Shown: positions 12,256-21,766, numbered from the stretch's first letter. The stretch: DNA of 64,000 bases from Oligoflexales bacterium (GCA_965226195.1 OZ245333.1:2344275-2408274); one strand, 5' to 3'. Numbers and translations: made by a program. Notes: a model not told the origin generated them from the sequence alone.

Positions 12256-13422
12256 CTAATCAATGACGATAGAGTCTCTGGATGGCTTAGGCAAAACACT
12301 CATATATCCAAGTTCGATGAAAGCTTCGATCACTTGTTGTTCGCCTAGCTGTGTAGCAAGAGACATGATATCCTCTCCATCTTCATTGGTGATGGCAAAG
12401 TTTGCCCCCGCCTCAGCTAGAATTTTAATCATCTCACCGTCTCCGTTACGAACTGCATAGAATAATCCCGTTTCTTTGGCAAAAAAATTTTGTGCATCGA
12501 TGTCTGCTCCAGCATTTTGCAAAATTTCTATCACTTGCCTGTAGTTATCGCTGTCAGTGATATGGTCGCCAAAGCCCGTTATATTGCTAAACGACGAATG
12601 ACCATCAACCGCAAGCAGTATCGGTGTAGTACCGAGGACTTCACTTCTTGCATTGACATCCGCCCCTTTCTCAACCATAGCCGATACCATTCTTACTTTT
12701 CCCATTGCAGAAGCCATTATCAACGCTGTATGACCCGCATCATAACCGCCATAGGTAGCATGAACATTTGCCTCAGCTCGCAGTAGTTTCTCACTTATGC
12801 TGTCTTTGCCACTTCGCAAGCTCCACATCAGGGCACTCCAGTCATCGTTGTGAGCATCACTGTTGGCATTGGCATTAACATCGGCACCATTTGCAATCAG
12901 CCAATTAACTGCAACATATTTATTCCTCCGCGATGCCTCAATCAATGGTGTGTAGTTAAACTTGTTTCTAGCGTCGATGTTAGCTTTGTTGTGCAGCAGG
13001 ACTGCCATTGCTGCAACGTGCCCATGCGCTGCGGCAACAATTATTGGTGATGCTTTCCGATACCCGCTTTTTATTTCAACATCAGCATCATTGTCAAGCA
13101 GCCACTGCATTATTTTGACCTTGTTGTGCTTTGCCGCAAGGTGCAGCATGGCATAGCCGTAGTGCTTATCTATCGCTTTGTTGATCCCAAAGCCAGTGTG
13201 CTCCAGCAGAAGAGCAAGCCCGCGTGTATCATCTCTTTGCAAGACACTCATAAACGGTGCGGGAACTTTAGCGAACAACGACGTTGCCATCAGACAGCTG
13301 ACTACAGAGCCACCAAAAGCATACATAACAGCCGCCTCGCAGGCATTTTGAATGCGATACATCTCGTTATCAGTGTGGGCAACCACTCCCACCGCTGCAA
13401 TGATTACTACAAGGCGTAGCAT
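12256..13422 (-). CDS. Secreted/membrane-anchored ankyrin-repeat protein
   Basis: 388 aa. Clear ANK repeats (GYAMLHLAAKHNKVKIMQWLLDNDADVE; SPIIVAAAHGHVAAMAVLLHNKANIDA; YTPLIEASRRNKYVAVNWLIANGADVNA; TALIMASAMGKVRMVSAMVEKGADVNA). Hydrophobic N-terminus MLRLVVIIAAVGVVAHT. Confidence 0.85.
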   Translation of the reverse strand: MLRLVVIIAAVGVVAHTDNEMYRIQNACEAAVMYAFGGSVVSCLMATSLFAKVPAPFMSVLQRDDTRGLALLLEHTGFGINKAIDKHYGYAMLHLAAKHNKVKIMQWLLDNDADVEIKSGYRKASPIIVAAAHGHVAAMAVLLHNKANIDARNKFNYTPLIEASRRNKYVAVNWLIANGADVNANANSDAHNDDWSALMWSLRSGKDSISEKLLRAEANVHATYGGYDAGHTALIMASAMGKVRMVSAMVEKGADVNARSEVLGTTPILLAVDGHSSFSNITGFGDHITDSDNYRQVIEILQNAGADIDAQNFFAKETGLFYAVRNGDGEMIKILAEAGANFAITNEDGEDIMSLATQLGEQQVIEAFIELGYMSVLPKPSRDSIVID

Positions 13423-13680
13423 GTAATGTCAAGATGAAAGTCAAATGCCCGCAGCACAAGGTGGTGGCAACCCAATAAACACGGGGATCAATCCTTCTTG
13501 CCGTTTGTTTTGCCCTTCCGCCATAGCTTCAGCCTTGGTGATGCTTTTTGAACCCACCGCCTATCATCCCCCCCCAACAGTTTTTTGTGGATTATCTAAA
13601 AACACCATCTGAAAATATAGAGATTTTCTTCATCTACTGCAAATTACAATCACAGTAATTGGTAATAGCATCCCCCAACT

Positions 13681-15003
13681 TCAGCGTATTCGTTCCAGTA
13701 TTTGCGCATCGATTAGCTGCTCAAAGTGCTCGATATATTCCTTGTTGCCCAAGTTTTTCAGCCCGGTATAGATCATCTTTAGGTTGTCTGTGCTAGTATT
13801 ACTTCCGCTAATATGAAGCCCCAGAGCATATTCCACCGCAGCATCGATACCACTCTTACCAGTTTTCTTTAGTTTAACAGCCATCAGCTTAGGATTGGCT
13901 ATCACTGGAGTAAACTCGGCAAAGTCCAGCAAAAGCTCATCTAGCTCTTCCCCATCAGCTCCCTCTTTTTTCAGCGTGTTGGCAATTGCTTCTATTTTGG
14001 AAAAGTCTAGTTGTATTAGCAATCCACGTTTAATAGAAACATCAGATACAGTAACAATTTTGTGTTTTTCTTTAAATTTCCAACCTGCAAATTCCTCACC
14101 CGCGTTTCTACTGGCAATAGCTAACAAATTTTGCCACAGTTCTTCAATCTCTTTAGATAATTTCGAAAGTTTTATTTTTCTTTTTGATGGAACATTTCTG
14201 GGTGCTGAAGCAGGTGTAGCTGTAGGTATAACATTACCTATTCGGGCTATTGTTTTGGCTAAGTTCCTGTAGAGTTGGCCTACCTCAATATCTTCTGCTA
14301 GCGAAATTGCTTTACTAATGGTAGGTGCATCATGCATTGGTCTCATTTCTGGAGGTAGATTGGCAAGGTATTCCTTCGTAGTAGCTGAAAGTTGCCACGA
14401 AATTATAGTATCTACTACCGCCAATTCTTTGCTTTTCAAGGCAGTAAGCATTGCTGCGTCTAGTATTTTCTTGGCTAGTAGACGTTTGTCTCTATCTTCA
14501 CCTACCTCTTCAAAATTGCTCAGAAAGTTTTGTATCAAGTCTATATCTCCACTTACTGCTGCAGCTGAGATGGATTTTTCATCAAGAAAGTTTTGTGACA
14601 ATCTAATCTTGATACCTTCGAGAATGGCTGCTATGCTTTTGTTTCCCGATATATTGGCAAAATTGATAAGAGTGTCCTTGTATTTTACCCCACTTGGATG
14701 CCAGTTGACATCTATGAGTTCTGCTCCTTGCTCTGCTAGATAGCGAACGATATTTACTTTTCTATTCATCGCAGCAAAAACCAGCATGCTGGTTTTTTTG
14801 CTGTCGTGTAGTACGATGTCATTCACGCTCAAGTTGCTTTTGTTGAGTAGATTCGCGAGCATTCTCGTGTTATCATAGAGGATTGCCCTCTCGATCTGCC
14901 TACTTATGGCCGGTGATAGTGTGTTTTTAGCCATCCTTGCTGGGGCAGCAGCGGCCAACTGGCTAGATACTAAAACTGATAGTAACATGCTAAAAATACC
15001 CAT
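13681..15003 (-). CDS. Secreted protein with N-terminal ankyrin-like repeat(s), remainder unknown
   Basis: 440 aa. Signal peptide MGIFSMLLSVLVSSQLAAAAPA. TSMLVFAAMNRKVNIVRYLAEQGAELI fits an ANK repeat. The rest is helical with no motif I recognise. Confidence 0.5.
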   Translation of the reverse strand: MGIFSMLLSVLVSSQLAAAAPARMAKNTLSPAISRQIERAILYDNTRMLANLLNKSNLSVNDIVLHDSKKTSMLVFAAMNRKVNIVRYLAEQGAELIDVNWHPSGVKYKDTLINFANISGNKSIAAILEGIKIRLSQNFLDEKSISAAAVSGDIDLIQNFLSNFEEVGEDRDKRLLAKKILDAAMLTALKSKELAVVDTIISWQLSATTKEYLANLPPEMRPMHDAPTISKAISLAEDIEVGQLYRNLAKTIARIGNVIPTATPASAPRNVPSKRKIKLSKLSKEIEELWQNLLAIASRNAGEEFAGWKFKEKHKIVTVSDVSIKRGLLIQLDFSKIEAIANTLKKEGADGEELDELLLDFAEFTPVIANPKLMAVKLKKTGKSGIDAAVEYALGLHISGSNTSTDNLKMIYTGLKNLGNKEYIEHFEQLIDAQILERIR

Positions 15004-15088
15004 TATTCTACCTCCTATACGTTATGTAAGATGTGTGTTTTCTACATCTCGTTGTAGTAGCAAAAATGGCTAACGGCACTACTCCTGG

Positions 15089-18000
15089 CTATCGGACTTC
15101 AACACCGTGCTCTTTAGCGATACTAACTATACTGTTGGCAAGATGGTAGCGTTGGTTTTTTAGTGATCTTTTATATGCATACCTGAAATATTCTGCGGGA
15201 ATCGCAACATCTTGCTCTTTAGCAATCTGGACAATTCGAACCACACTGTTTGCAGCATTGGATAACACTACTGCATCTTGCAGTGCCTGTCCGAAATATT
15301 CTGCTGGAATCTCAGCACCTTGCTCTTTAGCAATTCGAGCCACGTCGTTTGCAACATCGAGTCGATTGCTTTGTAGAGTTGCCTGTAGCAATTCTCCGAA
15401 ATACTTCATGTCTATTTCAACGCCACGCTCTTCAGCAATCCGAATTACATTGGTTGTTGTAGTAGCAGATTTATTGTTTTTTACTAATACTGTTTGCAAC
15501 GCTTTGCTGAAATATTCTGCTGGAATCTCAACACCTTGCTCTTTAGCAATTCGATCCACACTGCTTGCAACAGTGGGTAGGTCGTGTTCTACTGCTGCCA
15601 GTAGTGACTCTCCAAAATGCTTTGCATCTATTTCAGCGAAATATTCTGCTGGAATCTCAACACTTTGCTCTTTAGCAACCCGAATAACCCGAACTACGCT
15701 GCTTGCAATATCGAGTCGATTACTTTTTAGAGTTGCCTGTAGTAACTCTCCAAAATACTTCGTGTCTATTTCAACGCCATGCTCTTTAGCAATCCGAATT
15801 ATATAGGCTATTGTAGTATCAGAAATTTGGTTGTTTTTTTCTAGTTCTAACACTGTTTGCAATGCTTTGCTGAAATATTCTGGATGGATTTCAACATCTT
15901 GCTCTTTAGCAATCTTAACAACCATATCCACATTGTTTGAAATATAGAATTGATTGCTTTTTACTGCTGCCAATAGCGATTCTCCGAAATACCTTGTGTC
16001 GATCTTAATGCTATGTTCATTGGCAAACTTGGCAACTTGGTCTATTGTGTCGGCATCATTAGCTCTCGATGTTTCATACACTAATGCCTTACCAACATGT
16101 TTTGCATCGATCTTAACACCGTGATTATAGGCAAATTTAAGCAGTTGAGCTGTGGTATATTGACTACCCCTCAATGCTTTCTGTAATGCCTTTTCAAAAT
16201 GTTTCATCTCGATATTAGAGCCGTGTTTTTCAGCAAGTTTAACCAGCTGGCTTACTGTGTCGGAATGATCATCAATAGATGCAATTGCAGCTGCAATTGC
16301 ATCTATAAAAAAATTCATATTGATCTTAATTTCACGCTCATCAGCAAGTGCAACCAGTTGTTCTATAGCGTCGGAATAACGACCTTTCGATGCATCTAGT
16401 AATGCCTGTTCAAAGTGTTCTGCATCGATTTTTACTCCATGATTTTCAGCAAGTTTAACTAGTTGTTCTATAGTGTCAGAGTGACCAGCTTTTGATGCAT
16501 CTAACAGTGCCCGTCCGAAATATTCTGCACCGATGCTAACACCATAATTGTCAGCAAGTTTAACTAGTTGTTCTATAGTGTCAGAGTGACCAGCTTTTGA
16601 TGCATCTAACAGTGCCCGTCCGAAATATTCTGCACCGATGCTAACATCATAATTGTCAGCAAGTTTAACTAGTTGTTCTATAGCGTCAGAGTGACCAGCT
16701 TTTGATGCATCTAACAGTGCCCGTCCGAAATATTCTGCATCGATTTTTACTCCATGATTTTCAGCAAGTTTAACTAGTTGTTCTATAGCGTCAGAGTGAC
16801 CAGCTTTTGATGCATCTAATAGTACCCGTCCGAAATATTCTGCATCGATTTTTACTCCATGATTTTCAGCAAGTTTAACTAGTTGTTCTATAGCGTCAGA
16901 GTGACCAGCTTTTGATGCATCTAATAGTACCCGTCCGAAATATTCTGCATCGATGCTAACACCATAATTGTTAGCAAGTTTAGCTATTTCACCTATTTTG
17001 TTGTATTGACCAGCTTTTGATGCATCTAATAGTACCCGTCCGAAATATTCTGCACCGATGCTAACATCATGATTGTCAGCAAGTTTAACCAGCTGGCTTA
17101 CTGTGCTGAAATGCTTGCCTTCCGATGCAGTTTGCAATGCCTGCTCGAAGTGTTTTGCACCGATAGTAACGCCGTGATTGTCAGCAAGTGCAACCAGTTG
17201 TTCTATAGCGTTGGAATAACGACCTTTCGATGCAGCTTGCAGTGCCTGTCCGAAATATTCTGCACCGATGCTAACATCATAATTGTCAGCAAGTTTAACT
17301 AGTTGTTCTATAGTGTCAGAGTGACCAGCTTTTGATGCATCTAACAGTGCCCGTCCGAAGTATTCTGCACCGATTTTTACTCCATGATTTTCAGCAAGTT
17401 TAACCAGTTGTTCTATGGTGTCAGAATGGCCAGCTTTTGATGCAGCTTGCAATGCCCGTCCGAAGTATTCTGCACCGATGATAACACCATAATTGTCAGC
17501 AAGTTTAACCAGTTGTTCTATAGTGTCAGAATGGCCAGCTTTTGATGCAGATACCAATACCCGTCCGAAATATTCTGCATCGATGCTAACACCATAGTTG
17601 TCAGCAAGTTTAGCTATTTCACCTATTTTGTTGTATTGACCAGCTTTTGATGCATCTAACAGTGCCCGTCCGAAATATTCTGCACCGATGCTAACATCAT
17701 GATTTTCAGCAAGTTTAACCAGTTGTCCTATTACATTGGAATGGCCACCTTCTAATGCAGCTTGCAATGCCTGTCTGAAGAAATATTCTGCACCGATGAT
17801 AACACCATAATTGTCAGCAAGTTCAACCAGTTGTTCTATAGTGTCAGAATGGCCAGCTTTTGATGCATCTAACAGTGCCTGTCTGAAATATTGTGCACCG
17901 ATGCTAACATCATGATTTTCAGCAAGTTTAACCAGTTGTTCCACTGTGCTGAAATTCTTGTCTTCCGATGCAGCTACCAATGCCCGTCCGAAGTATTCTG

Positions 18001-19210
18001 CACCGATTTTAACTCCATGATTTTCAGCAAGTTTAACCAGTTGTTCTATGGTGTCAGAATGGCCAGCTTTTGATGCAGCTTGCAATGCCCGTCCGAAGTA
18101 TTCTGCACCGATGATAACACCATAATTGTCAGCAAGTTTAACCAGTTGTTCTATAGTGTCAGAATGGCCAGCTTTTGATGCATCTAACAGTGCCTGTCTG
18201 AAATATTGGTCACCGATTCTAACATCATGATTTTCAGCAAGTTTAAGCAGTTGCTTTGCTGTGTTGATATGACCATGGGTTAATGTTACCTGCAGTGTCT
18301 GTCCTAAATACCCTGTACCGATCATAATGTTGTTTTTCTCAGCAAGCTTAACCAACTGTTCTATTATCTCTGGATGATTGCTTTCCGGCACAGTTTTCAA
18401 TGCTCTACCTAAATATTCTGCACCAATGTCAATACCGTAGTTGTCAGCAAGCTTAGCTAGTTGTTTTATTTTGTCGGGGTCGTCATTGTCTGATGCAAGT
18501 TGCAATGACTCGCCTAGATATTCTGCACTGGCCCTGAGCTTAAATTGTCTATAGTTAGCTCTGTGTTCATCATTATCGATCCTAATCAGTTGCTCCACTG
18601 TGCTAAAATGACTGCCCTCCGATGCTCTATGCAATGCCAGCACAAGATTAGTGTTGCTGATCTTAATGTTACGCTTATCAGCAAGTTCAACCAGTTTTTC
18701 TGCTGTGTCGGTGTGACCATAGGCTGATGCTTCCTGTAGTGACATACCGAAATGTTTTGGAATGATCGTAACACCGTAATTGTCAGCAAGTTCAACCAGT
18801 TTTTCTGCTGTGTCGGTGTGACCATAGGTTGATGCTTCCTGCAGTGACATAGCGAAATATGGAACGATCGTACCACCGTGAATGATCGTAACACCTTGAA
18901 TGTAGGCAAGTTCAAGCAGCTTTTCTATTATGTCGGGGTGACCATTTTTCGACGCGTCTTGCAATGCTTCACCGAAAGTAACTGCATCGATCTTGATATT
19001 CTCGTCTCGCAATGCTTCACCGAAAGTAATTGCATCGATCTTGACATCGTACTGAGCAGCAAGTTTAGCTATTTCACCTATTCTGTTGTAGTGGCCAGCT
19101 TTTGATGCAGATATCAGTATATTAGCAATGTTAGAACGCATTGCATTGTGTTTAACACCATAGCATGGGGCAGACACTAATGTAATGAGAGAGATTATGA
19201 TGATTTTCAT
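15089..19210 (-). CDS. Giant secreted tandem-repeat protein (about 39 copies of a 35-residue helical-hairpin repeat, ankyrin-/Sel1-like)
   Basis: 1373-aa uninterrupted ORF. Signal peptide MKIIIISLITLVSAPCYG. Repeat consensus: GAEYFGRALLDASKAGHSDTIEQLVKLA(D/E)N(Y/H)GV(S/K)I. The AxxxGHxxxIxxLVxLA core resembles the ankyrin helix pair. The GVxID...A...AS..G spacing also resembles Sel1-like repeats. Confidence 0.85.
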   Translation of the reverse strand: MKIIIISLITLVSAPCYGVKHNAMRSNIANILISASKAGHYNRIGEIAKLAAQYDVKIDAITFGEALRDENIKIDAVTFGEALQDASKNGHPDIIEKLLELAYIQGVTIIHGGTIVPYFAMSLQEASTYGHTDTAEKLVELADNYGVTIIPKHFGMSLQEASAYGHTDTAEKLVELADKRNIKISNTNLVLALHRASEGSHFSTVEQLIRIDNDEHRANYRQFKLRASAEYLGESLQLASDNDDPDKIKQLAKLADNYGIDIGAEYLGRALKTVPESNHPEIIEQLVKLAEKNNIMIGTGYLGQTLQVTLTHGHINTAKQLLKLAENHDVRIGDQYFRQALLDASKAGHSDTIEQLVKLADNYGVIIGAEYFGRALQAASKAGHSDTIEQLVKLAENHGVKIGAEYFGRALVAASEDKNFSTVEQLVKLAENHDVSIGAQYFRQALLDASKAGHSDTIEQLVELADNYGVIIGAEYFFRQALQAALEGGHSNVIGQLVKLAENHDVSIGAEYFGRALLDASKAGQYNKIGEIAKLADNYGVSIDAEYFGRVLVSASKAGHSDTIEQLVKLADNYGVIIGAEYFGRALQAASKAGHSDTIEQLVKLAENHGVKIGAEYFGRALLDASKAGHSDTIEQLVKLADNYDVSIGAEYFGQALQAASKGRYSNAIEQLVALADNHGVTIGAKHFEQALQTASEGKHFSTVSQLVKLADNHDVSIGAEYFGRVLLDASKAGQYNKIGEIAKLANNYGVSIDAEYFGRVLLDASKAGHSDAIEQLVKLAENHGVKIDAEYFGRVLLDASKAGHSDAIEQLVKLAENHGVKIDAEYFGRALLDASKAGHSDAIEQLVKLADNYDVSIGAEYFGRALLDASKAGHSDTIEQLVKLADNYGVSIGAEYFGRALLDASKAGHSDTIEQLVKLAENHGVKIDAEHFEQALLDASKGRYSDAIEQLVALADEREIKINMNFFIDAIAAAIASIDDHSDTVSQLVKLAEKHGSNIEMKHFEKALQKALRGSQYTTAQLLKFAYNHGVKIDAKHVGKALVYETSRANDADTIDQVAKFANEHSIKIDTRYFGESLLAAVKSNQFYISNNVDMVVKIAKEQDVEIHPEYFSKALQTVLELEKNNQISDTTIAYIIRIAKEHGVEIDTKYFGELLQATLKSNRLDIASSVVRVIRVAKEQSVEIPAEYFAEIDAKHFGESLLAAVEHDLPTVASSVDRIAKEQGVEIPAEYFSKALQTVLVKNNKSATTTTNVIRIAEERGVEIDMKYFGELLQATLQSNRLDVANDVARIAKEQGAEIPAEYFGQALQDAVVLSNAANSVVRIVQIAKEQDVAIPAEYFRYAYKRSLKNQRYHLANSIVSIAKEHGVEVR
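15150..19100 (-). repeat. 105-bp coding tandem repeat array (central block about 16400-18230 nearly identical at DNA level)
   Basis: The period was measured directly. TTTGATGCAT at 16491 recurs at 16596, which gives 105 bp = 35 codons. Outer copies are progressively more diverged. Confidence 0.9.
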
Positions 19211-19488
19211 GGCAATCTCCTAATAAAAGGCAATAATTTGGTATAACAAAATATGTTAATGTGTCAAGGTTTAAATTTTTAGGTGATGCAGTTCGCCATA
19301 GCCCATAAATTTGTAACATCCAAATATCAAAGCTTTATTTGTGTAATAATTAGCTGAGCAAAAAAGATAGTACCTGGTGGTAGTCACTCACCTAGTATTT
19401 AAACTCACGGTGTTAGCGATTAAACGGTGTAAGTAGTGTATATGTATGGTTTTTGTCTGTTCGCAGGTATTACAGAGCTAGTGCACCC

Positions 19489-19805
19489 GGCTTTGTTGCA
19501 TAAGTTCCGTTGATTATAACATGCTGTTATCATAGCACTTTTATGTGGGGAGCGTTCCCCTCCCCTGCGTGTTCGCAGACTTCTCGTTTGGGTCAGGCGC
19601 AATCATCCTGCTGCACCATGTCTCATGCTAAAGCATTCGCGTGAAATGGTTTGCAGGTCTGCTTGCACCTGACCATTGTCAACTTCTGTGGACACTATGG
19701 GCTTGTGCGTGGTGCAGGCATTACCTTTGCAACACCTATAAAATTCTTACTGCTATAAGGGTTATAGGATATAAACATGCCTGCCCTGAGTTATGCAACA
19801 AAGTC
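19489..19805. mobile_element. MITE-like non-autonomous element, copy A (317 bp) with about 15-bp terminal inverted repeats and a 9-bp target-site duplication
   Basis: Ends are GGCTTTGTTGCATAAG... and ...AGTTATGCAACAAAGTC. It is flanked on both sides by AGTGCACCC (19480-19488 and 19806-19814). The interior is rich in nested inverted repeats. An inverted second copy lies at 57681-58029. Confidence 0.75.
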
Positions 19806-19951
19806 AGTGCACCCTGAACGAAATATAAAATTACAAAATATCAAATAGTTAAAATCAAACTCTAGGCACAGAGAATGGGAAAAACGGGTGGGGTTTGGTA
19901 TGATTAATGATGGCATCAGGAAGGTACAAAATTAATCGGTGGAGATGGGCT

Positions 19952-21766
19952 ATGATAACGAGGTGTTGGTCTTTTTTTGCATTATTTATCATTTTGTTGA
20001 TGTCTGGAGGGTGTAGCAAACACGAAGCAGAGCCGGTTGTTATTGATAGCATCACCACTGGTGGTGGGGTGTGTTCATTACTTTGCGACCCCGTGGAGGT
20101 GTCGCAAGCCTTTGTTTCAGAGTGGAAGGTTGATGCTGGCGATACTATTTTTCTACCCTTGCTGGAAAAAACAGCCGACATGGAAGATAGAGATAAACCT
20201 TATCCTCACACAATAACTCTCCCCGCGGGTGTAAAGAGAGTTAATTACAAATATGATTTTACCGTTGACTGGGGCGACGGTTCAACATCGAAAATCACTG
20301 CTTTTGATGACCCTGATAACAAGCATACCTACCAAAAGGCTGGTACCTATACCGTCCAGATCACAGGTGTGATGGAAGCTATGCGTGGCCACTTACACGA
20401 TGATGAGATAGATATCTCCAATAAAATGATCGCTGTTTCCGATCTCGGTGATGTTGGTTGGAAAGCTTTGTTCTATACCTTCTCCGAATCCTTCAACCTC
20501 AATGCTGTTGCTGGCGGTGATACCTCAGAGGTCGAGGTTATGGCTGGGGTGTTCTATGAAGCTACCCTTCTCAAGCCTGATATTAGCAGTTGGGACACCT
20601 CAAAGGTGGTCAGCATGACGGAGCTTTTTTCTAGGGCTTACTCGGCCAACCCTGATGTCAGCAAGTGGGATACCTCTAATGTCACCGACATGGCTGGTAT
20701 GTTCAGGAACGCAATCTCAGCCGACCCCGATGTTAGCAGGTGGAACACCACCAGTGTTACCGATATGAGCAGCATGTTTGCAACTGCAATATCGGCCAAT
20801 CCCGATGTCAGTAAGTGGGATACTGCTAATGTCACTGATATGAGTGGTATGTTCATGTTGTCCGAGTCGGCCAATCCCGATGTCAGTAAGTGGGATACCG
20901 CCAACGTTACACACATGAGTGGTATGTTCATGTACGCAAGTTCTGCTAACCCTGATGTTAGCAAGTGGAATACTGCCAATGTCACCGACATGTGGGGCAT
21001 GTTCGGGTATGCAATTTCAGCCGATCCCGACGTTAGCAAGTGGAACACCTCCAAAATCAACTATATGTCTAGGATGTTTGAGGGAGCGGTTTCTGCCAAT
21101 CCCGATGTCAGTAAATGGGATATCGCTAACGTTACACACATGAGCGGTATGTTCAAGCAGGCAAAGAAAGCTCAGCCGGATATGTCCAACTGGAGTTTTG
21201 CAAAAGTTGAAAGCATGGATGAGATGTTTGCAGGTCATACGCTAAATCCTGCCAACTATGCAAATTTTCTGCAACGCCTCAGAGCTACGGCAACTACTAC
21301 TGAGAAGATAACCCTCGATGCCGGAAAGTCAGATACAGACAACAGCGATGCTATCGCTGCCAAGGCCTATCTCACAGGTGCAGCACCGCAAGGGAAAGGC
21401 TGGGTTATACATGATAACGATAACCTTGCTCCTTCTATCTGGGAAATAAAAATGGATGTGCTAATACGAGAATCTTCAGAGGGGGTGTTTGGTGTCACTG
21501 TGAAAGTAGAGGATGCTTGGGGTAATACGCCAGTCGGAAATGTAAAGGTAGCAGTTGCTCTTGATGGTGGTGATTTTTTGCAAGGCACTACGAGTATTGA
21601 TACCAATAGTGGTATCGCAGTGTTTAGTAATTTAAGACCAAAGTTGCCAGCTAGTATTTCCTTATCTGCGCCTGTAAAAATACCATGGAAGCTAGAGGTA
21701 TCAGCAACTCTTCCTGATGATAGTCGAATAAACTCCACTGCTGCAGTCTTGTTAACGTTTAAGTGA
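19952..21766 (+). CDS. BspA/DUF285-type repeat surface lipoprotein with C-terminal Ig-like region
   Basis: Start placed at MITRCWSFFALFIILLMSGGC (lipobox). Nine repeats of about 25 residues of the type NPDVSKWDTSNVTDMSGMF(x)A(x)SA. The C-terminal beta-rich segment (VFGVTVKVEDAWGNTPVGNVKVAVALDGG) is Big-like. Confidence 0.8.
   Translation: MITRCWSFFALFIILLMSGGCSKHEAEPVVIDSITTGGGVCSLLCDPVEVSQAFVSEWKVDAGDTIFLPLLEKTADMEDRDKPYPHTITLPAGVKRVNYKYDFTVDWGDGSTSKITAFDDPDNKHTYQKAGTYTVQITGVMEAMRGHLHDDEIDISNKMIAVSDLGDVGWKALFYTFSESFNLNAVAGGDTSEVEVMAGVFYEATLLKPDISSWDTSKVVSMTELFSRAYSANPDVSKWDTSNVTDMAGMFRNAISADPDVSRWNTTSVTDMSSMFATAISANPDVSKWDTANVTDMSGMFMLSESANPDVSKWDTANVTHMSGMFMYASSANPDVSKWNTANVTDMWGMFGYAISADPDVSKWNTSKINYMSRMFEGAVSANPDVSKWDIANVTHMSGMFKQAKKAQPDMSNWSFAKVESMDEMFAGHTLNPANYANFLQRLRATATTTEKITLDAGKSDTDNSDAIAAKAYLTGAAPQGKGWVIHDNDNLAPSIWEIKMDVLIRESSEGVFGVTVKVEDAWGNTPVGNVKVAVALDGGDFLQGTTSIDTNSGIAVFSNLRPKLPASISLSAPVKIPWKLEVSATLPDDSRINSTAAVLLTFK

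What the first reader, a model, noticed from the sequence alone, without database searches (positions are those of the whole stretch)
15089..19210. 1373-aa secreted protein built from about 39 copies of a 35-residue repeat, with a central block of near-identical 105-bp units
It is a single ORF with a signal peptide and an almost pure array of GAEYFGRALLDASKAGHSDTIEQLVKLADNYGVSI-type units. Units between about 16400 and 18230 are nearly identical at DNA level and occur in a few recurring flavours that look shuffled: ADNYGV(S/I)I against AENHGVKI, and LLDAS against LQAAS. This indicates recent expansion and unequal recombination. Units toward both ends are old and diverged. The 35-residue period fits neither canonical ankyrin (33) nor Sel1 (36+), although the AxxxGH...LVxLA core is ankyrin-like. 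Such arrays are prone to copy-number variation and to assembly collapse or expansion. A secreted solenoid of this size suggests a host- or prey-interaction scaffold.
Basis: partly seen in the sequence, partly recalled or inferred. Interest (0 to 1): 0.6.

Follow-up and report, generated by a model that had tools for sequence, protein, structure and literature searches.

The report
Giant exported ankyrin-like 35-residue repeat protein
This is a real 1373-residue exported protein built from 37 copies of a divergent, ankyrin-related 35-residue helical repeat; it is the oversized, recently amplified member of an unnamed protein family in uncultured Oligoflexales-like bacteria, and its length differs sharply between assemblies.

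Summary
ORF 15089-19210 (-) encodes 1373 aa. A unit HMM finds 37 units of about 35 aa, plus two fragments. A central block (16427-18214) has units 62-100% identical at DNA level and is visibly mosaic.

The repeat is not a new class. Its sequence is a very divergent ankyrin-type repeat with two extra residues in helix 2, scoring only about 3 bits per unit against Pfam Ank_2. A 35-residue period is compatible with ankyrin: fungal 35-residue arrays score 400-500 bits. A striking similarity to TAL-effector repeats is confined to the amplified consensus unit and vanishes at family level. AlphaFold models show two 13-14-residue helices per unit and resemble PPR hairpins more than solved ankyrins.

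The protein belongs to an unnamed bacterial family: a signal peptide plus about 12 such units, 417-565 aa. A paralogue occurs in the same sample.

The gene lies in a low-GC island with two other ANK genes and a DUF285 lipoprotein gene. The island is absent from the closest genome, an Oligoflexales MAG.

Short-read contigs break at the array. A strain about 98% identical carries an in-frame 171-aa version.

The function, a protein-binding scaffold outside the cytoplasm, is inferred.

The parts
15089..19210 (-). Complete gene: 1373-aa repeat protein with stop codon at 15089-15091
   Evidence: ORF list. The unit HMM finds 37 units over residues 32-1371.
19157..19210 (-). Signal-peptide-like N-terminus MKIIIISLITLVSAPCYG. 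The only Cys of the protein is C16, so it may be a lipoprotein, although Pro at -1 is atypical.
   Evidence: Hydropathy and Cys count. Family members start with canonical signal peptides such as MKIALILAFLLLAAEVEA|A.
19217..19221 (-). Shine-Dalgarno AGGAG, 6 nt upstream of the ATG
   Evidence: Read directly from the sequence.
19240..19267 (-). Promoter-like site TTGACA-16 nt-TATACC. This is only a consensus match.
   Evidence: Read directly from the sequence. It did not pass the scanner's rule for the second hexamer.
18215..19117 (-). Eight older, diverged N-terminal units (residues 32-332). The first is homologous to the first unit of family members.
   Evidence: Comparison with N-termini of P0050/P0195.
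18947..19042 (-). 48-bp (16-aa) tandem duplication KIDAITFGEALRDENI | KIDAVTFGEALQDASK. Only one copy is present in the related strain L084.
16427..18214 (-). Young amplified block of 17 units (residues 333-928), 62-100% identical at DNA level and mosaic
   Evidence: TRF, identity matrix, four-gamete test. AlphaFold model of residues 333-753 has pLDDT 87.
15092..16426 (-). Twelve older, diverged C-terminal units (residues 929-1373), colinear with the whole repeat domain of the ~500-aa family members
   Evidence: Alignment A2 at 16-26% identity. AlphaFold with the family alignment gives pLDDT 78.
15301..18859 (-). Segment missing, in frame, from the 171-aa version of the gene in the related strain or assembly L084 (ERZ25068966 ctg500584_3x_l)
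12256..21766 (.). Variable low-GC island holding four genes: a canonical ANK protein (12256-13422, -), a signal + weak-ANK protein (13681-15003, -), the 1373-aa array, and a DUF285/PKD lipoprotein (19907-21766, +)
   Evidence: Pfam and NCBIfam. GC is 0.40 against about 0.47 elsewhere. There is no counterpart in the closest genome L004.

Best explanation
The gene encodes a Sec-exported alpha-solenoid, possibly lipid-anchored, made of 37 helix-turn-helix units of about 35 residues.

**Repeat type.** The units are a very divergent offshoot of the ankyrin repeat: the A-S-x-x-G-H turn is kept, TPLH is lost, helix 2 is two residues longer and the hairpin loop is short.

**Origin.** The protein is the expanded member of a lineage-specific family (signal peptide plus about 12 units) found in uncultured Oligoflexales-like bacteria. 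Its two ends keep the ancestral diverged units. An internal unit was amplified recently to 17 copies. Those copies are being homogenised and reshuffled by unequal recombination or gene conversion, and the same process can delete most of the array.

**Likely function (inferred).** It is an elongated protein-binding scaffold displayed in the envelope or released. Its ligand surface is the ridge formed by the variable loop and helix-end residues (unit positions 10-11, 14-20, 29-34). Copy number and residue 'flavours' would tune avidity and specificity toward host or prey proteins.

**Shown:** gene, units, mosaicism, family membership, island context, length difference between assemblies.
**Inferred:** export route, binding function, target.
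For: **Gene and units.**

**Ankyrin relationship**
- Pfam Ank_2 scores 112 bits with 13 stretches.
- BLASTP gives 33% identity over 784 aa to a fungal ANK array, with a regular 2-residue gap per unit.
- The family profile against PDB sequences hits almost only ANK domains, led by Kidins220 at E=2e-12, then MIB1, TRPA1 and DARPins.
- Ank_2 is the only repeat family recurring among family members, in 8 of 20.

**Predicted structure.** The unit is a 14-residue helix, 2-residue turn, 13-residue helix and 6-residue loop. pLDDT is 87 for the single-sequence model and 78 with the family alignment.

**Family**
- Sixteen or more signal-peptide proteins of 417-565 aa are colinear with the C-terminal 445 aa.
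- A paralogue, P0195, occurs in the same sample. Three tandem paralogues occur in a related MAG at a conserved locus beside CoaE, RRF and EF-Ts.

**Recombination.**

**Length polymorphism.**

**Expression signals.**

**Island.** Three ANK-type genes plus a DUF285 lipoprotein gene, low GC, absent from the closest genome.

**Precedent.** Highly conserved ANK arrays with repeat-number polymorphism and variable sites on the binding face are described for fungal NLRs (PMC4986451).
Against: - The ankyrin signal is weak. It is about 3 bits per unit, against about 30 for true ANK arrays of similar size. Four-unit segments only just pass the Pfam cut-off (29-33 bits against 27.3), at the level of obviously spurious hits such as LamB_YcsF and SCD. 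The C-terminal third matches no ANK model.
- Both AlphaFold models match PPR proteins first in Foldseek (E 1e-11 to 1e-7).
- No signal-peptide predictor was available. Pro at -1 of the Cys is not a canonical lipobox.
- No ligand, expression or localisation data exist.
- The two most distant relatives (P0069, P0184) carry a J-domain and a membrane helix, which hints that some repeat domains of this type may face the cytoplasm.
Confidence: 0.55

Rival explanations
1. It is an envelope-internal (periplasmic) ankyrin-type protein that serves the bacterium itself. It might act as an inhibitor or immunity scaffold for the cell's own secreted hydrolases, or as a chaperone-like holder, rather than facing a host or prey.
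For: - The Sec-type signal has no recognisable further secretion signal.
- The organism belongs to Bdellovibrionota. In that phylum a periplasmic ankyrin protein, Bd3460, protects Bdellovibrio from its own DD-endopeptidases (own knowledge, Lambert et al. 2015, not checked here).
- A family paralogue sits in a conserved core-genome locus next to CoaE, RRF and EF-Ts.
Against: - Size (150 kDa, 37 units), rapid amplification and strain-level presence/absence of most of the array are unusual for a housekeeping partner protein.
- The gene lies in a variable island with a DUF285/BspA-like surface lipoprotein gene and two further ANK genes.
Confidence: 0.2
2. The array length in the window is an assembly artefact, and the true gene is short, like the 171-aa version.
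For: - A 13.5-kb contig from another assembly (ERZ25068966, 3x) carries the same locus with a 171-aa in-frame gene.
- Short-read contigs cannot cross the array.
- The exact 1373-aa product is not on record in the gene index.
Against: - The longest exact repeat inside the gene is only 171 bp, and all but two of the 37 units are distinct, so any read over a few hundred bases places them uniquely.
- About 60% of the gene is diverged, unique units that an assembler cannot invent.
- An uninterrupted 4.1-kb reading frame is kept throughout.
- The short version comes from a different strain (92-98% identity in flanks) at 3x coverage. Its junction, TTCCA-AA-ATATTTCGG, is not a simple join of the window's sequences, and it looks like a genuine deletion allele.
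Confidence: 0.07
3. It is a modular nucleic-acid-binding array of the TALE or PPR kind, reading one base per unit through the variable NY/NH residues in the loop.
For: - The best sequence hits in the PDB for the whole protein are TALE arrays (E 3e-27). The NCBIfam AvrBs3 model scores 165 bits.
- The central consensus aligns with the TALE repeat at z of about 7-8, placing N-[Y/H] at TALE positions 12-13.
- It has a 35-residue period and PPR-like predicted hairpins.
Against: - TALE similarity is confined to the amplified consensus unit. Older units and family units give z of 2.9 or less, and the family profile hits no TALE.
- For the TALE-like motif V7/G14/L29 (PMC4787788), Leu29 is never present.
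- TALE phosphate-contact positions 16-17 are S/K/I plus an invariant Ile.
- The protein is acidic: pI 5.5, 189 D+E against 140 K+R.
- There are no Pfam TAL_effector or PPR matches.
- PPR code positions are R/Q and A.
- It has a Sec-type signal, not a type III one.
Confidence: 0.03
4. It is a functionally decaying or neutral gene whose repeats expand and contract by slippage, with no selected role for the amplified block.
For: - Codon differences among central units are 1186 non-synonymous against 451 synonymous, roughly the neutral ratio.
- Most of the array is dispensable in a related strain.
- The gene lies in a variable island.
Against: - A 1373-codon frame at 40% GC with no stop or frameshift, plus a good Shine-Dalgarno site.
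- Hydrophobic core positions are invariant or nearly so (L9, L27, A28 and I35 at 19/19), while variation is concentrated in loop and turn positions.
- The deletion allele also preserves frame and repeat register.
Confidence: 0.12

Closest known systems
Ankyrin-repeat (ANK) proteins, in particular exported 'eukaryote-like' ANK proteins of host-associated bacteria
   Same: Stacked helix-turn-helix units with an A-[AS]-x-x-G-H turn. Pfam Ank_2 passes its threshold and the family profile hits solved ANK domains. It has a signal peptide and neighbours canonical ANK genes. ANK proteins with signal peptides are described in sponge symbionts and their phages (bioRxiv 10.1101/608950, listed but not read in detail).
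   Different: The unit is 35 residues, not 33, with the 2-residue insertion in helix 2. There is no TPLH motif. The predicted helices are 14 and 13 residues with only a 6-residue loop, and no beta-hairpin is predicted. The score is about 3 bits per unit. The C-terminal third is invisible to ANK models. Foldseek prefers PPR.
Fungal NLR-associated ANK arrays with high internal repeat conservation (Dyrka et al. 2014, PMC4986451)
   Same: These are the best sequence matches: 33% identity over 784 aa, with YFG-ALQAAS-GH-I-QL shared and consensus z of about 9-10. The evolutionary regime is the same: near-identical units, repeat-number polymorphism and variable sites in loop and helix-end positions. 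Some of these arrays also have a 35-residue period.
   Different: Those are cytoplasmic eukaryotic receptors with NACHT or NB-ARC domains, and their extra residues lie in the loop. This one is a bacterial exported protein with no other domain. The similarity may be convergence of consensus-like units rather than orthology.
TAL effector / TALE-like repeats (TALE, RipTAL, Bat, MOrTL)
   Same: The period is 33-35 residues with two helices per unit. The central consensus unit aligns as T-x-EQ-x-V-x-x-A-x-N-x-G...E...R-LL...H. Val7 and Gly14 of the TALE-like motif are mostly present.
   Different: Leu29 is absent. There is no basic stripe and the protein is acidic. The similarity is absent from older units and from the family. 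No TALE appears among the top 50 structural matches. It carries a Sec signal.
Pentatricopeptide repeat (PPR) proteins
   Same: Exactly 35 residues per unit. The predicted helix lengths and turns are the same, and PPR proteins are the top Foldseek matches for both models.
   Different: There is no PPR HMM match. The consensus z is 1.6. TM-scores are only 0.2-0.44. The code positions do not fit, and the protein is exported and acidic.

Membership tests
Ankyrin repeat superfamily | Significant match to curated ANK profile HMMs | tested here: met
   The whole protein scores 112.3 bits against Ank_2 (cut-off 27.3) with 13 stretches. Four-unit segments score 29-33 bits and N-terminal units score 24.9 bits against Ank (cut-off 21.1). 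The match is marginal: the C-terminal 187-445 aa match no ANK model.
Ankyrin repeat superfamily | Profile of the protein's own family recognises solved ANK domains | tested here: met
   The A2 profile against PDB sequences hits Kidins220 at 2e-12, MIB1 at 5e-7, TRPA1 at 1.6e-6, plus designed ANKs, DARPins and AnkX. Only LRPPRC and dPPR10 are non-ANK hits.
Ankyrin repeat superfamily | 33-residue unit with TPLH motif at the start of helix 1 | tested here: not met
   The unit is 35 residues. The TPLH position reads G-R-A-L. A 35-residue period alone is not disqualifying.
Ankyrin repeat superfamily | G-H tight turn between the two helices preceded by A-A/S-x-x | tested here: met
   A12 and S13 are each present in 17/19 units, and G16 and H17 each in 14/19 central units.
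Ankyrin repeat superfamily | L-shaped unit with beta-hairpin/long loop, and a 3D match to solved ANK stacks | tested here: inconclusive
TALE-like repeats | Consensus motif X6-V-X6-G-X13-L-X4-6 (Val7, Gly14, Leu29; de Lange et al. 2015) | tested here: not met
   In the TALE register, Val7 is V25 (16/19) and Gly14 is G32 (12/19). Position 29 is A/S and never Leu.
TALE-like repeats | Similarity shared by all units and relatives (homology rather than coincidence) | tested here: not met
   z is 6.6-7.9 only for the amplified consensus. Older units and family units give z of 2.9 or less. There are no TALE hits with the family profile and no Pfam TAL_effector hit.
TALE-like repeats | Electropositive stripe (positions 16/17) and DNA-compatible charge | tested here: not met
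   The equivalent positions are S/K/I and an invariant Ile. pI is 5.5 with net charge about -49.
Pentatricopeptide repeats | Match to PPR profile HMMs | tested here: not met
   There is no PPR family at E<=1 for the whole protein or E<=10 for segments.
Pentatricopeptide repeats | 35-residue antiparallel helical hairpin, with structural similarity to solved PPR | tested here: met
   PPR proteins are the Foldseek top hits for both models (E 3.5e-11 and 4.6e-8). TM-scores are only 0.2-0.44. The query is a predicted structure.
Pentatricopeptide repeats | Base-specifying residues at positions 5 and 35 (T/N with N/D/S) | tested here: not met
   The equivalent positions are R/Q and A. The code itself is from established knowledge.
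Sel1/TPR repeats | HMM or consensus match | tested here: not met
   There are no Sel1 or TPR families in Pfam output apart from a sub-threshold TPR_ZFYVE26 hit. Consensus z is 0.8 and -0.5.
Sec-exported protein / lipoprotein | N-terminal signal peptide with cleavage site or lipobox | tested here: inconclusive
   The n-h-c layout is present and the sole Cys (C16) directly follows the hydrophobic core, but the sequence is S-A-P-C. Relatives have canonical AxA-type signals. No SignalP or LipoP tool was available.

The most novel reading that the evidence does not exclude
The family may be a structurally distinct solenoid class. It would have ankyrin-derived sequence refolded into PPR/TALE-like long helical hairpins with a 35-residue period. 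The recently amplified units, with their di-residue 'flavours' (N-Y/N-H, then S/K/I), would then act as a modular, code-like reader of a polymeric ligand: a nucleic acid, a glycan, or a repetitive host or prey protein. That would make it an evolutionary bridge between ANK and the one-unit-per-monomer binders.
Probability: 0.05. Interest if true: 0.75.

Novelty: new variant of a known kind. Interest (0 to 1): 0.35.

Why it matters
If the reading is right, there is an unnamed family of exported ankyrin-like proteins in uncultured, probably host-associated Oligoflexales (Bdellovibrionota). No Pfam model beyond marginal ANK matches and no NCBIfam model covers it.

One member shows, within a single gene and between near-identical strains, how a solenoid is lengthened from about 12 to 37 units and cut back to 5.

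It is a practical warning for annotation: short-read assemblies lose the gene, and whole-protein E-values on such arrays are inflated enough to suggest TAL effectors.

It also gives structural biologists a natural 35-residue ANK derivative whose predicted geometry departs from solved ankyrins.

It does not open a long-standing question.

Tried and rejected
**TALE-like reading.** The NCBIfam AvrBs3 hit (2e-48) and PDB TALE hits (3e-27) looked exciting. I rejected them after the motif test, charge, unit-by-unit z-scores and the family profile.

**Spurious Pfam hits.** LamB_YcsF and SCD score 1e-17 to 1e-18. These are short local matches multiplied by the repeats.

**Self-alignment trick for AlphaFold.** Sliding 12-unit windows failed because MAFFT staggered the rows. 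I used a single sequence instead.

**Genome scan.** A scan of 185,579 species genomes with the protein found no relative.

**Exact-product look-ups.**
- The 1373-aa protein and the DUF285 neighbour (two start codons tried) are not on record.
- Both flanking genes are on record, including on a contig over 1 Mb that the tool does not display.
- I cannot tell whether this is by design or reflects a different repeat content there.

**Other checks.** Rfam finds nothing in the window. Literature on Oligoflexales and ankyrin turned up nothing specific. MOON and STAR DNA-binding repeat families (PMC11417379) are unrelated.

Full report
**Observation**

- An AGGAG Shine-Dalgarno site lies 6 nt upstream of the start. 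A TTGACA-16-TATACC promoter-like site lies further up.
- Tandem Repeats Finder reports a 105-bp period over 16341-18253, with 18.2 copies and 82% matches.
- My manual parse and an HMM built from the units both give 37 units covering residues 32-1371. There are also two partial fragments. No other ORF in the window carries the unit.

The central 17 units (residues 333-928, window 16427-18214) are 62-100% identical at DNA level. Units 20 and 21 are identical, and several pairs are 96-99% identical.

Of 406 informative site pairs, 139 fail the four-gamete test, and single units are visible chimeras of others.
- Units at both ends are old, at 44-70% DNA identity.

**Anatomy**

The consensus unit is GAEYFGRALLDASKAGHSDTIEQLVKLADNHGVSI.

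- L9, L27, A28 and I35 are invariant, and the other hydrophobic core positions nearly so (16-17 of 19).
- Variation concentrates at positions 10-11, 14-20 and 29-34.
- The protein is acidic (pI 5.5).
- Its single Cys is at position 16, directly after a 10-residue hydrophobic N-terminal core.

**Which repeat family?**

Three known families compete.

*Ankyrin*
- Pfam Ank_2 scores 112 bits with 13 stretches.
- The closest proteins in 5.8 billion sequences are fungal NLR-type ANK arrays. BLASTP gives 33% identity over 784 aa, with a regular 2-residue gap in helix 2 of every unit.
- A profile of the protein's own bacterial family hits almost exclusively solved ANK domains, led by Kidins220 at 2e-12.
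- Ank_2 is the only repeat family recurring among family members.
- A 35-residue period is not an argument against ANK. Eukaryotic arrays with that period score 400-500 bits on ANK models.
- The signal here is weak, however. It amounts to about 3 bits per unit. Four-unit segments barely pass the cut-off, alongside plainly spurious hits. The C-terminal third matches nothing.

*TAL effector*
- NCBIfam AvrBs3 (165 bits) and PDB TALE arrays (E 3e-27) are the best whole-protein sequence hits. In that register N-[Y/H] falls on the TALE base-specifying positions.
- This does not survive testing.
  - The TALE-like motif V7/G14/L29 (PMC4787788) lacks Leu29.
  - The phosphate-contact positions are S/K/I and Ile, and the protein is acidic.
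  - The similarity exists only for the amplified consensus unit (z of about 7-8). It is absent from older units and family units (z of 2.9 or less).
  - The family profile hits no TALE.

*PPR*
- Both AlphaFold models give a 14-residue helix, a 2-residue turn, a 13-residue helix and a 6-residue loop per unit.
  - Residues 333-753, single sequence: pLDDT 87.
  - Residues 929-1373, with the family alignment: pLDDT 78.
- Foldseek against the PDB ranks PPR proteins first for both models (E 3.5e-11 and 4.6e-8), but TM-scores are only 0.2-0.44.
No TALE appears in either top 50.
- There is no PPR HMM match, and the PPR code positions do not fit.

*Conclusion.* By sequence, this is a very divergent ankyrin-superfamily repeat. 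Its predicted geometry, with longer helices and a short loop, has drifted toward a generic PPR-like hairpin solenoid.

**Family and context**

An exhaustive HMMER scan of 1.84 billion representatives found a bacterial family of at least 16 proteins of 417-565 aa.

- Each has a canonical signal peptide and about 12 units of this type.
- They are colinear with the C-terminal 445 aa of the query at 16-26% identity. Their first unit matches the query's first unit.
- Neither Pfam nor NCBIfam names the family.
- One paralogue, P0195 (565 aa), occurs in the same sample as the window's flanks, between a fatty-acid hydroxylase gene and CoaE/RRF/EF-Ts. A related MAG has three tandem paralogues at that locus.
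- The 1373-aa protein is more than twice the size of any other member. It looks like a family member whose internal unit was amplified.

The organism is probably an uncultured Oligoflexales bacterium.

- The adjacent oxidoreductase is 77% identical to that of MAG OZ244057.1, and the flanks are syntenic at 78-80% nucleotide identity.
- In that genome the oxidoreductase abuts the ABC-transporter operon (GldA/F/G-like), which is inverted there.
- Window 12256-21766 therefore has no counterpart in that genome. It has GC 0.40 and holds a canonical ANK gene, a signal + weak-ANK gene, the array and a DUF285/PKD lipoprotein gene.

**Assembly and copy number**

- Short-read (Logan) contigs from ERR14231557 and ERR14231558 match the window at 100% identity. 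They end at 15280, inside the last units, and at 20869, inside the DUF285 repeats.
- The longest exact repeat in the gene is 171 bp, and all but two units are distinct. Long reads would therefore place every unit, while 150-bp reads could not.
- A separate assembly (ERZ25068966, contig ctg500584_3x_l) carries the locus from a strain 92-99.8% identical in the flanks.
  - There the gene is 171 aa, an in-frame fusion of unit 2 to unit 35 that lacks window 15301-18859. It also lacks one copy of a 48-bp duplication.
  - The junction, TTCCA-AA-ATATTTCGG, is not a simple join of the window's sequences.
  - I read this as a probable real deletion allele. An artefact at 3x coverage cannot be excluded.

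**Mechanism**

*Shown.* The array grows, homogenises and shrinks by recombination between units.

*Inferred*
- The protein is exported through Sec and is possibly lipid-anchored.
- It forms an elongated solenoid whose variable loop and helix-end ridge binds protein ligands.
- Unit number and flavour would tune that binding.
- The same regime is documented for fungal NLR ANK arrays (PMC4986451).
- Whether the target is a host, a prey cell or the bacterium's own envelope proteins is open.

**Verdict**

The finding is real and correctly described, and it is mostly explained as a divergent ANK-type family with one hyper-expanded, length-polymorphic member. Novelty is moderate and interest about 0.35.

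Noticed in passing
window 19907-21766 (+): A DUF285 (BspA-like) + PKD protein with a canonical lipobox (LMSGGC) is transcribed divergently from the array. It is itself a tandem-repeat gene. Short-read contigs end inside it at 20869, and the related strain L084 has a shorter, frameshifted version at 85-92% nucleotide identity.
   Followed up: partly
window 12256-21766: A low-GC (0.40 against about 0.47) four-gene island of exported or ANK-type proteins. It is absent from the closest genome (L004, Oligoflexales MAG OZ244057.1), where the flanking ABC-transporter operon is inverted. No integrase, tRNA or IS element was looked for at the borders.
   Followed up: partly
window 18947-19042 (-): A 48-bp (16-aa) tandem duplication, KIDAITFGEALRDENI|KIDAVTFGEALQDASK, splits the second unit. 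The related strain L084 has a single copy.
   Followed up: yes
P0069, P0184 (distant family relatives; no locus fetched): Two relatives with the same unit type end in a DnaJ J-domain and have an extra membrane helix after an N-terminus ending FAPC/FSPC. That ending resembles the SAPC of the window protein. This suggests a membrane-anchored or effector-like subfamily and a possibly lineage-specific Pro-Cys signal motif.
   Followed up: partly
L085 2958-4655; L086 4015-9276: A conserved core-genome locus (FA hydroxylase | family gene(s) | CoaE | RRF | EF-Ts | S2) holds one paralogue in the window's sample and three tandem paralogues (555, 484 and 480 aa) in a related 986-kb contig.
   Followed up: partly
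L004 3898-4105 and 11152-11324: Two perfect (100%) 39-bp tandem arrays of 4-5 copies. The second lies inside the oxidoreductase ORF, making it 799 aa instead of 735. Their origin is unexplained.
   Followed up: no
window 13681-15003 (-) and 12256-13422 (-): The gene immediately downstream encodes a 440-aa protein with a signal-like N-terminus and only one sub-threshold ANK match. The next gene encodes a canonical 6-repeat ANK protein resembling Legionella Ank effectors only through the repeats.
   Followed up: partly
window 15089-19210 and 19907-21766: The exact products of both repeat genes are not on record in the 153-billion-gene index. Both flanking genes are, including on a contig over 1 Mb that the look-up does not display. 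The reason is unknown.
   Followed up: partly
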